DNA from: a virus
Lineage: Duplodnaviria > Heunggongvirae > Uroviricota > Caudoviricetes
Strand: one strand, 5' to 3'
Virus record (IMG/VR): IMGVR_UViG_2529292736_000005
Length of the DNA: 36,843 nucleotides
Under the pieces are notes generated by a model that was not told the DNA's origin, did no database searches, and saw only the letters and a list, made by a program, of their open reading frames with translations. A program made the translations under genes and the position numbers. The stretch's first letter is position 1. The number at the start of each line of letters is the position of its first letter. Positions 20,607-20,957 of this stretch are shown piece after piece.

Positions 20607-20957
20607 ATGACTCAAAACTATGAACTGATTGTGAAAGGGATCCGCAATTTTGAGAATAAAGTTACGGTAACTTTAGCGTTACGGGACAAAAAACGCTTTG
20701 ACGGTGAAATTTTTGACCTGGACATCTCGCTGGACCGTGTTGAAGGTGCCGCGCTGGAGTTTTATGAGGCAGCAGCCAGAAGGAGCATCAGACAGGTCTT
20801 CCTGGATGTTGCTGCCGGGTTATGTGAAGGGGATGAGCAGTCGCCGGAAAAGCGCCCCGTAATTTTAGAGGCGCAGAATGTGTGGATAACCTACAAAGGA
20901 AAGCTACCAGGAAGAATTACTGGTTCTCTGAAGACTCCTCCGGAATCACAACCTTAA
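20607..20957 (+). CDS. hypothetical protein between holin and endolysin (116 aa)
   Basis: ATG 4 nt after the holin stop, GGGGAGAG RBS. Confidence 0.5.
   Translation: MTQNYELIVKGIRNFENKVTVTLALRDKKRFDGEIFDLDISLDRVEGAALEFYEAAARRSIRQVFLDVAAGLCEGDEQSPEKRPVILEAQNVWITYKGKLPGRITGSLKTPPESQP

What the first reader, a model, noticed from the sequence alone, without database searches (positions are those of the whole stretch)
20607..20957. Extra gene wedged between holin S and endolysin R
In λ, phage 21 and 933W-type lysis cassettes as I recall them, S is followed directly by R. Here a 116-aa ORF starts 4 nt after the S stop with its own RBS, and R follows after 63 nt. The protein has no TM segment or signal peptide and is acidic. 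It would be co-expressed with the lysis genes, so it could modulate lysis timing or be a late-expressed moron.
Basis: partly seen in the sequence, partly recalled or inferred. Interest (0 to 1): 0.5.

Follow-up and report, generated by a model that had tools for sequence, protein, structure and literature searches.

The report
YdfR-family gene between pinholin and endolysin
The extra gene between the holin and the endolysin is real, but it is a common, already catalogued prophage gene (YdfR family, DUF1327) that sits in this slot in most E. coli genomes, and its function is still not established.

Summary
A 116-codon ORF (20607-20957, +) starts 4 nt after the stop of a phage-21-type pinholin gene, uses a Shine-Dalgarno sequence inside the last S codons, and ends 63 nt before a SAR-type lysozyme gene. 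It is not new. It matches Pfam DUF1327 at 145 bits and is 100% identical to a RefSeq 'YdfR family protein'. Its DNA matches 4305 of 5426 complete E. coli genomes. Its K-12 relative is ydfR in the Qin prophage (essQ-ydfR-rrrQ-rzpQ). Phages 21 and 933W do lack it, but H-19B, most Stx1a and Stx2c phages and 47 of 70 surveyed cassettes carry it, always in this slot. The family is confined to Escherichia and Shigella. Its 75-residue core (three strands plus a helix, pLDDT 88) is under purifying selection, and the parts beyond it are swapped as modules. No function is annotated. The only experimental lead is a 2026 report that K-12 YdfR binds the catalytic half of RNase E and co-purifies with RNA. 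My best reading is a soluble protein made late with the pinholin that binds a host factor. A role in lysis timing remains an untested rival. Interest is low to moderate.

The parts
20387..20602 (+). S gene: phage-21-type class II holin (pinholin), 71 codons, with a dual-start motif (Met1 at 20387, Met4 at 20396)
   Evidence: Pfam PF04971, E 9e-33. PHROG holin families. 79% identical to phage 21 S21, where both dual-start products are annotated.
20592..20599 (+). Shine-Dalgarno GGGGAGAG inside the last S codons. It serves whichever gene follows S.
   Evidence: Sequence. The same S 3' end plus a short spacer (1-4 nt) and an ATG precedes DUF1327, the alternative 185-214 aa gene, or R itself in 70 related cassettes.
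20607..20957 (+). ydfR-family gene (DUF1327), 116 codons plus stop. This is the finding.
   Evidence: Pfam PF07041, 145 bits against a cut-off of 25. 100% identical to RefSeq WP_000193280.1, 'YdfR family protein'.
20607..20831 (+). Module A: the conserved DUF1327 core, residues 1-75 (three beta strands and one long helix)
   Evidence: AlphaFold2 model of residues 1-78: pLDDT 88, pTM 0.74. 81% identical to K-12 YdfR residues 1-74. dN/dS about 0.25-0.33.
20832..20954 (+). Module B: the tail, residues 76-116 (EKRPVILEAQNVWITYKGKLPGRITGSLKTPP...). The model has low confidence here, which may mean disorder. The tail is absent from K-12 YdfR and is extended by further modules in the 176-, 183-, 268- and 296-aa relatives.
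   Evidence: pLDDT below 50 for residues 74-115. Alignment A1. Junction survey. Its divergence does not track that of module A.
20958..21020 (+). 63-nt spacer. Its last 25 nt or so (20996-21020, aaccgataaatcctgataaatatcc) are a conserved element upstream of R with no obvious Shine-Dalgarno.
   Evidence: Found upstream of R in nearly all cassettes that carry an insert, and absent where R follows S directly. No significant RNA structure: z -0.03.
21021..21554 (+). R gene: lysozyme with an N-terminal SAR-like hydrophobic segment (MNAKIRYGLSAAVLALIAAGAPAP...)
   Evidence: Pfam PF00959, E 5.9e-24. PHROG endolysin.
21852..22319 (+). Rz (i-spanin), with the embedded Rz1 lipoprotein ORF at 22072-22257
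   Evidence: Pfam PF03245, E 8e-49. The embedded ORF has the lipobox LVVSAC.

Best explanation
The ORF is a YdfR-family (DUF1327) gene, the usual optional occupant of the S-R junction in phage-21-type lysis cassettes of Escherichia and Shigella lambdoid prophages. Shown: it encodes a soluble 13-kDa protein with a folded 75-residue core (beta-beta-beta-alpha) and a tail that the model predicts with low confidence. It is read from the late transcript with a 4-nt gap after S and a ribosome-binding site inside S, so it should be made together with the pinholin. It is dispensable for the basic lysis machinery, because phage 21, 933W and 10 of 70 surveyed cassettes lack it. Inferred mechanism: the core domain binds a host cytoplasmic factor, the catalytic N-terminal half of RNase E, possibly together with RNA. 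This has been reported for the K-12 orthologue, where residues 1-72 suffice, and that region is 81% identical here. The protein would then alter RNA processing or decay late in infection, rather than act on the membrane or the cell wall. The confidence figure of 0.4 is for the whole statement. Identity and anatomy I put at about 0.97, and the RNase E step at about 0.3-0.35.
Confidence: 0.4

Rival explanations
1. It is a cytoplasmic regulator of lysis timing. The protein would be made in step with the pinholin, bind the cytoplasmic C-terminal tail of S (or the SAR endolysin before its release), and delay or sharpen triggering. T4 RIII does this for holin T, and P1 LydB does it for LydA.
For: The gene occurs only directly after an S21-type holin, with the same short coupling (4 nt in nearly all), in 57 of 57 loci examined. 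It is optional, as a modulator would be. A K-12 ydfR deletion appears among the orphan hits of an envelope-permeability (CPRG) screen (PMC3879167 supplement). Cassettes with an insert carry a different R N-terminus (MN(A/T)KI(K/R)Y against MSRK(L/F)RY) and an R leader without a Shine-Dalgarno.
Against: There is no experimental evidence. The protein has no sequence similarity to any PHROG family with a lysis annotation. The same S protein (100% identical) is paired with two DUF1327 lineages that differ at about 38% of core residues, with an unrelated 185-214 aa gene, or with nothing. That argues against a tightly co-evolved partner of S. My own inference is that the CPRG hit may be a polar effect of the resistance cassette on the downstream lysozyme gene rrrQ.
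Confidence: 0.25
2. It is an accessory cargo gene at a recombination hotspot. The S-R junction would be a slot where modular foreign genes are swapped, and the protein would serve something unrelated to lysis or RNA decay, for example countering a host or competitor function late in infection.
For: G+C is 47% (GC3 47%), against 53-56% (GC3 59-64%) for S, R and Rz. The slot holds at least four module combinations (A+B, A+B+C, A+B+C+D, C+D) or is empty. Modules A and B show discordant divergence. A second low-G+C insert lies between R and Rz.
Against: The gene has no promoter or terminator of its own, so it is not a classical moron expressed in the lysogen. There are no PADLOC defence hits. The core is conserved and under purifying selection, but that does not say for what.
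Confidence: 0.2
3. It is a decaying remnant. The 116-aa form would be a truncated leftover of a longer 296-aa protein and would have no function of its own.
For: The window protein equals the first 113 residues of the 176-, 183- and 296-aa relatives, followed by 3 unrelated codons. Frameshifted copies exist, for example L049.
Against: The 114-116 aa forms are the commonest class, and their clusters hold hundreds to more than a thousand member sequences. The core shows purifying selection. K-12 YdfR keeps only the core plus a different tail, and it is a stable protein that can be overproduced.
Confidence: 0.1

Closest known systems
E. coli K-12 YdfR (P76160), Qin prophage, in the arrangement essQ-ydfR-rrrQ-rzpQ; Pfam PF07041 (DUF1327)
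   Same: Same family and same position, 4 nt after an S21-type holin and before the lysozyme gene. Residues 1-74 are 81% identical. The model shows the same beta-rich N-terminal domain followed by a helix (the AlphaFold description for P76160 is quoted).
   Different: K-12 YdfR is 103 aa. After residue 75 or so it has an unrelated basic tail, and its stop codon overlaps the rrrQ start. The window protein has the B module and a 63-nt spacer before R.
Unannotated or hypothetical ORF between S and R in phage H-19B, Stx1a and Stx2c phages, Stx2 phage 86 (orf5) and mEp460
   Same: Same slot and same family. These show the gene is a regular part of many functional, inducible phages.
   Different: Most Stx1a and Stx2c alleles belong to the second lineage and are 56% identical in the core. 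The window allele is closest to those of mEp460 and vB_EcoS-783R2 (99-100% in the core).
Phage-encoded RNase E modulators: T4 Srd, phiKZ Dip (gp37), T7 gp0.7 (recalled from the literature, not tested here)
   Different: There is no sequence similarity. Those proteins are early gene products, whereas this gene sits in the late lysis operon. Dip binds the C-terminal scaffold of RNase E, not the catalytic half. No effect of YdfR on RNase E activity has been shown.
Cytoplasmic holin antagonists or cofactors: P1 LydB (encoded directly after the holin gene lydA) and T4 RIII (recalled from the literature)
   Same: They are soluble proteins with no TM segment. LydB is encoded immediately downstream of its holin gene.
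   Different: There is no sequence similarity to any lysis-annotated PHROG. No lysis phenotype is known for any DUF1327 gene.

Membership tests
YdfR family / Pfam PF07041 (DUF1327) | Match to the family HMM above the curated gathering score | tested here: met
   145.1 bits against a cut-off of 25, E 7.5e-43, residues 1-112 on profile positions 1-92 of 93.
YdfR family / Pfam PF07041 (DUF1327) | Located directly downstream of a phage-21-type (class II) holin gene and upstream of the lysozyme gene | tested here: met
   Window. 10 of 10 loci seeded with DUF1327 and 47 of 47 DUF1327-bearing loci seeded with the holin have the same arrangement.
YdfR family / Pfam PF07041 (DUF1327) | Conserved N-terminal core shared with K-12 YdfR | tested here: met
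   81% identity over residues 1-74. Columns invariant in alignment A1 include E6, V9, K10, N14, D37, R44 and the motif EGA.LEFYE.
YdfR family / Pfam PF07041 (DUF1327) | Binding to the RNase E N-terminal half (reported for the K-12 member only) | not testable with these tools
   PMC13232886. No complex prediction or wet-lab assay was available.
Cytoplasmic antiholins / lysis-inhibition cofactors (T4 RIII, P1 LydB) | Sequence homology to a known member | tested here: not met
   A scan of all 38,880 PHROG families returned only 'unknown function' families. No hit to PDB sequences.
Cytoplasmic antiholins / lysis-inhibition cofactors (T4 RIII, P1 LydB) | Loss of the gene changes lysis timing | not testable with these tools
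   Needs a deletion in an inducible lysogen.
Phage RNase E modulators (Srd, Dip, gp0.7) | Sequence or fold homology to a known member | tested here: inconclusive
Moron (autonomous prophage cargo gene) | Own promoter and terminator flanking the gene | tested here: not met
   No sigma-70-like site on the + strand in 20200-22500. The only + strand terminator-like hairpins are at 20319-20347 and 21644-21676, and neither flanks the ORF.
Moron (autonomous prophage cargo gene) | Base composition different from neighbouring phage genes | tested here: met
   G+C 47.3% (GC3 47%), against S 53% (64%), R 55% (61%) and Rz 56% (59%).
Anti-phage defence systems (PADLOC) | Match to a defence-system HMM | tested here: not met
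   No hit at E <= 1 for the window protein or for the longer relatives.

The most novel reading that the evidence does not exclude
DUF1327 proteins could be a new class of cytoplasmic factor specific to pinholin cassettes, made in fixed proportion to S by translational coupling. They might set the lysis clock directly, as a soluble antiholin or cofactor unrelated to RIII and LydB. Or they might link RNase E-dependent RNA decay to the lysis programme. The interchangeable tail modules (B, C, D) would tune the effect. Because Stx1a and Stx2c phages carry the gene and most Stx2a phages do not, it could also contribute to differences in the timing of lysis and toxin release between Stx phage types.
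Probability: 0.2. Interest if true: 0.55.

Novelty: already known. Interest (0 to 1): 0.25.

Why it matters
As a discovery it matters little. The gene is already in Pfam, PHROGs and RefSeq, has a named K-12 homologue, and is present in about four of five complete E. coli genomes. It still matters in a modest way. It is one of the most common E. coli prophage genes without a function. It sits inside the best-studied pinholin/SAR-endolysin cassette. It is carried by most Stx1a and Stx2c phages but by almost no Stx2a phages. A simple deletion experiment in an inducible lysogen would show whether it affects lysis timing, and therefore toxin release, or RNA decay.

Tried and rejected
1. Function from sequence libraries. 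Pfam gives only DUF1327. NCBIfam gives nothing. The PHROG hits are all 'unknown function'. PADLOC gives nothing. A profile search against PDB sequences found nothing.

3. Domain fusions. The longer relatives (176-328 aa) add a coiled-coil-like module and a C-terminal module of about 120 aa, but neither has any annotation. A 3128-aa protein with six weak repeat matches is a G2F-repeat protein, and I treat that match as spurious.

4. Wider phylogenetic reach. phmmer against 1.84 billion cluster representatives found only 65 clusters, many of them fragments. A scan of one genome per species found only E. coli, E. albertii, E. ruysiae and Shigella, plus two MAG contigs labelled Veillonella and Bacillota that look like contamination.

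5. Regulatory RNA in the 63-nt spacer. Folding is no better than for shuffled sequence (z -0.03).

6. An autonomous promoter or terminator for the ORF. None was found.

7. Literature. Only one paper in the library mentions DUF1327, and only in passing. A paper on the region flanking stx in Stx phages stops its analysis at S.

Full report
**1. What is in the sequence**

The region is a lambdoid late operon. The order of features is:
- Q antiterminator (14128-14949)
- DNA methylase (15524-16573)
- tRNA-Met and tRNA-Arg (16623-16875)
- a NanS-p-type sialate O-acetylesterase (18368-20236)
- the lysis cassette
- terminase genes nu1 and A

In the cassette, S (20387-20602) is a phage-21-type class II holin (PF04971, E 9e-33). 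R (21021-21554) is a lysozyme (PF00959) with an N-terminal hydrophobic SAR-like segment. Rz (21852-22319) carries an embedded Rz1 ORF.

The ORF in question runs from 20607 to 20957. The sequence GGGGAGAG (20592-20599), inside the last S codons, is a Shine-Dalgarno at a suitable distance.

The protein is soluble: the highest 19-residue hydropathy mean is 0.69. It is only slightly acidic (pI 5.55, net charge about -1).

**2. It is a real gene**

ORF length alone is weak evidence, because antisense ORFs of similar length occur next to it. Three other results settle the question.
- The protein matches Pfam DUF1327 over its full length (145 bits against a cut-off of 25) and PHROGs 406, 2091 and 1085.
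- Homologues are abundant and sit in the same place.
- Comparing the window's first 75 codons with the second major allele lineage gives pS 0.65 against pN 0.31 (Fisher p 3e-5). The K-12 allele gives pS 0.32 against pN 0.10 (p 5e-4) (dN/dS 0.25-0.33).

**3. It is already catalogued**

The DNA is 100% identical to a gene annotated 'YdfR family protein' (WP_000193280.1) in E. coli strain 98198. There it again lies between a class II holin and a lysozyme. Megablast finds the ORF in 4305 of 5426 complete E. coli genomes, at 8347 places and up to 8 per genome. Many of those matches cover only the first 200 nt or so.

The K-12-type Qin prophage has holin, ydfR, rrrQ and rzpQ in that order, with ydfR 4 nt after the holin stop.

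**4. How common the slot is**

I fetched 80 viral contigs that encode a nearly identical S. In 70 of them both S and R were present, and I classified what lies between:
- 10 have R directly after S (1-4 nt gap).
- 47 have a DUF1327 gene.
- 13 have a different gene of 158-214 aa and no DUF1327 directly after S.

In 10 further loci reached through DUF1327 itself, the gene again starts 4 nt after an S21-type holin whose protein is 75-100% identical to the window's S.

In deposited phage genomes, an S21-type holin occurs in 434 records and the DUF1327 core in 101. By phage type the DUF1327 counts are 41 against 47 Stx1a records, 15 against 17 Stx2c records, and 2 against 124 Stx2a records.

In H-19B, however, the 400-nt 'gap' between the annotated S and R genes holds an unannotated DUF1327 ORF.

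**5. Family range**

The family is narrow. phmmer against 1.84 billion cluster representatives found 65 clusters, many of them fragments. A scan of one genome per species found only E. coli, E. albertii, E. ruysiae and Shigella, plus two MAG contigs that look like contamination.

**6. Anatomy of the protein**

The full-length AlphaFold2 model was confident only for residues 1-74. A model of residues 1-78 reached pLDDT 88 and pTM 0.74. It has strands at 5-15, 18-27 and 34-43 and a helix at 50-73. Residues 75-116 are predicted with low confidence.

Alignments show a modular family:
- Module A is the core, residues 1-75. It is shared with K-12 YdfR at 81% identity.
- Module B is residues 76-113, as in the window protein.
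- Module C is an optional coiled-coil-like segment, present in the 176- and 183-aa forms.
- Module D is an optional C-terminal domain of about 120 aa, present in the 268-, 296- and 328-aa forms.

The alternative gene found in 13 cassettes is essentially C+D without A+B (PHROG 1085 positions 117-296). The window protein equals the first 113 residues of the long forms plus three unrelated codons.

Modules A and B differ in divergence within the same pair of genes. In L058, for example, dS is 1.49 for A and 0.26 for B. That indicates recombination between modules.

**7. The junctions**

The 3' end of S (…CGGGGAGAG, then the stop codon) plus a short spacer (1-4 nt) and an ATG is the same whichever gene follows, whether DUF1327, the C+D gene or R. 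The occupant of the slot therefore takes over the coupling to S.

When an insert is present, R is preceded by a conserved element (…gataaatcctgataaatatcc, then ATG) with no obvious Shine-Dalgarno. R then begins MN(A/T)KI(K/R)Y, against MSRK(L/F)RY in the direct cassettes. The 63-nt spacer has no significant RNA structure.

The ORF has no promoter or terminator of its own. Its G+C content is 47% (GC3 47%), below that of S, R and Rz (53-56%; GC3 59-64%). In composition it looks like acquired cargo. In expression it is part of the late operon.

**8. Function**

The literature adds one real lead. Göpel et al. (RNA Biol 2026, PMC13232886) reported four things:
- They recovered K-12 YdfR(1-72) in a two-hybrid screen and showed interaction with Rne 1-597.
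- They co-purified Rne 1-598 with Strep-YdfR.
- They found DNase-resistant nucleic acid in YdfR eluates.
- YdfR overproduction changed few transcripts, and they could not rule out a contaminant as the source of the RNA.

A ydfR deletion is also listed among the orphan hits of an envelope-permeability screen (PMC3879167 supplement). My own inference is that this could be a polar effect on the downstream lysozyme gene.

**9. Verdict on mechanism**

Identity and anatomy are secure. For the mechanism I commit, with modest confidence, to a soluble late protein made together with the pinholin whose core domain binds a host cytoplasmic factor. The catalytic half of RNase E is the only candidate with data behind it.

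The main rival is a cytoplasmic lysis-timing modulator, analogous in logic to P1 LydB or T4 RIII. The strict positional link to S21-type holins favours it. Against it, the same S protein is paired with very different DUF1327 alleles, with another gene, or with nothing.

Two further rivals are recombination-hotspot cargo with an unrelated role, and a decaying remnant of the 296-aa form.

**10. Novelty and score**

The gene family, its name, its position in K-12 and its annotation in hundreds of phage and thousands of bacterial records all exist already, so this is 'already known'. What I did not find stated in the literature I searched is minor: the invariant 4-nt coupling to S, the A/B/C/D modular swapping at the S-R junction, the skew between Stx subtypes, and the missing annotation in H-19B. 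Interest is 0.25.

Noticed in passing
window 21555-21851: There is a second low-G+C insert (44.8%) in the lysis cassette, between R and Rz. It contains a strong terminator-like hairpin followed by a T-run (21644-21676) and a 57-aa ORF (21677-21850) that matches PHROG 6632 (unknown function). In 933W the same slot holds an ant-like gene.
   Followed up: partly
window 20996-21023; loci L003-L082: When any gene is inserted between S and R, R is preceded by a conserved element (gataaatcctgataaatatcc, then ATG) without a recognisable Shine-Dalgarno, and its N-terminus is MN(A/T)KI(K/R)Y. When R follows S directly it uses the Shine-Dalgarno inside S and begins MSRK(L/F)RY, with one more positive charge ahead of the SAR segment. 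This could change the amount of R made or its membrane-release behaviour.
   Followed up: partly
L094 (H-19B, AF034975.3) 1601-1995 of the locus: The GenBank record of the classic Stx1 phage H-19B annotates S and R with a 400-nt gap between them. The gap encodes an unannotated DUF1327 protein that is 56% identical to the window core.
   Followed up: yes
L003 (IMGVR_UViG_2703718769_000010), 673-900 nt after the S stop: A 75-aa ORF (MKKYDMTVKSFHMGDKNVVVVLG...) lies downstream of the C+D-type gene. It is a divergent DUF1327 core (Pfam E 2e-8), so a second, more distant DUF1327 lineage exists that is not directly coupled to S.
   Followed up: partly
loci L004, L066, L012, L038 and others: An uncharacterised domain of about 120 aa (ECNRPSFVVSGD...GLTYLKVRI) with a preceding coiled-coil-like segment occurs either fused to DUF1327 (296 aa) or as a separate 185-aa gene in the same slot. 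It has no Pfam or PADLOC hit.
   Followed up: partly
window 7345-9933: There is an IS66-family element: an HTH transposase-like ORF, TnpB_IS66 (7995-8342) and a DDE transposase (8362-9933). It is inserted in the early or replication part of the prophage.
   Followed up: partly
window 16900-18360: The position that holds stx in Stx phages (after the tRNA genes, before nanS-p) here carries a 118-aa ORF on the + strand (16983-17339, PHROG 2873) and a 108-aa ORF on the - strand (17796-18122, PHROG 4407). Both are of unknown function, and no stx genes are present.
   Followed up: partly
window 20319-20347: A terminator-like hairpin with a T-run lies just upstream of S, inside the longest ORF call for S (20309-20602). 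The real S start is therefore the MYQMEK dual-start motif at 20387 and 20396.
   Followed up: partly
L087, L089 (genome contigs): DUF1327 lysis cassettes appear on MAG contigs labelled Veillonella parvula and 'Bacillota bacterium'. The cassettes are typical E. coli prophage sequence, so these contigs are probably binning contamination.
   Followed up: no
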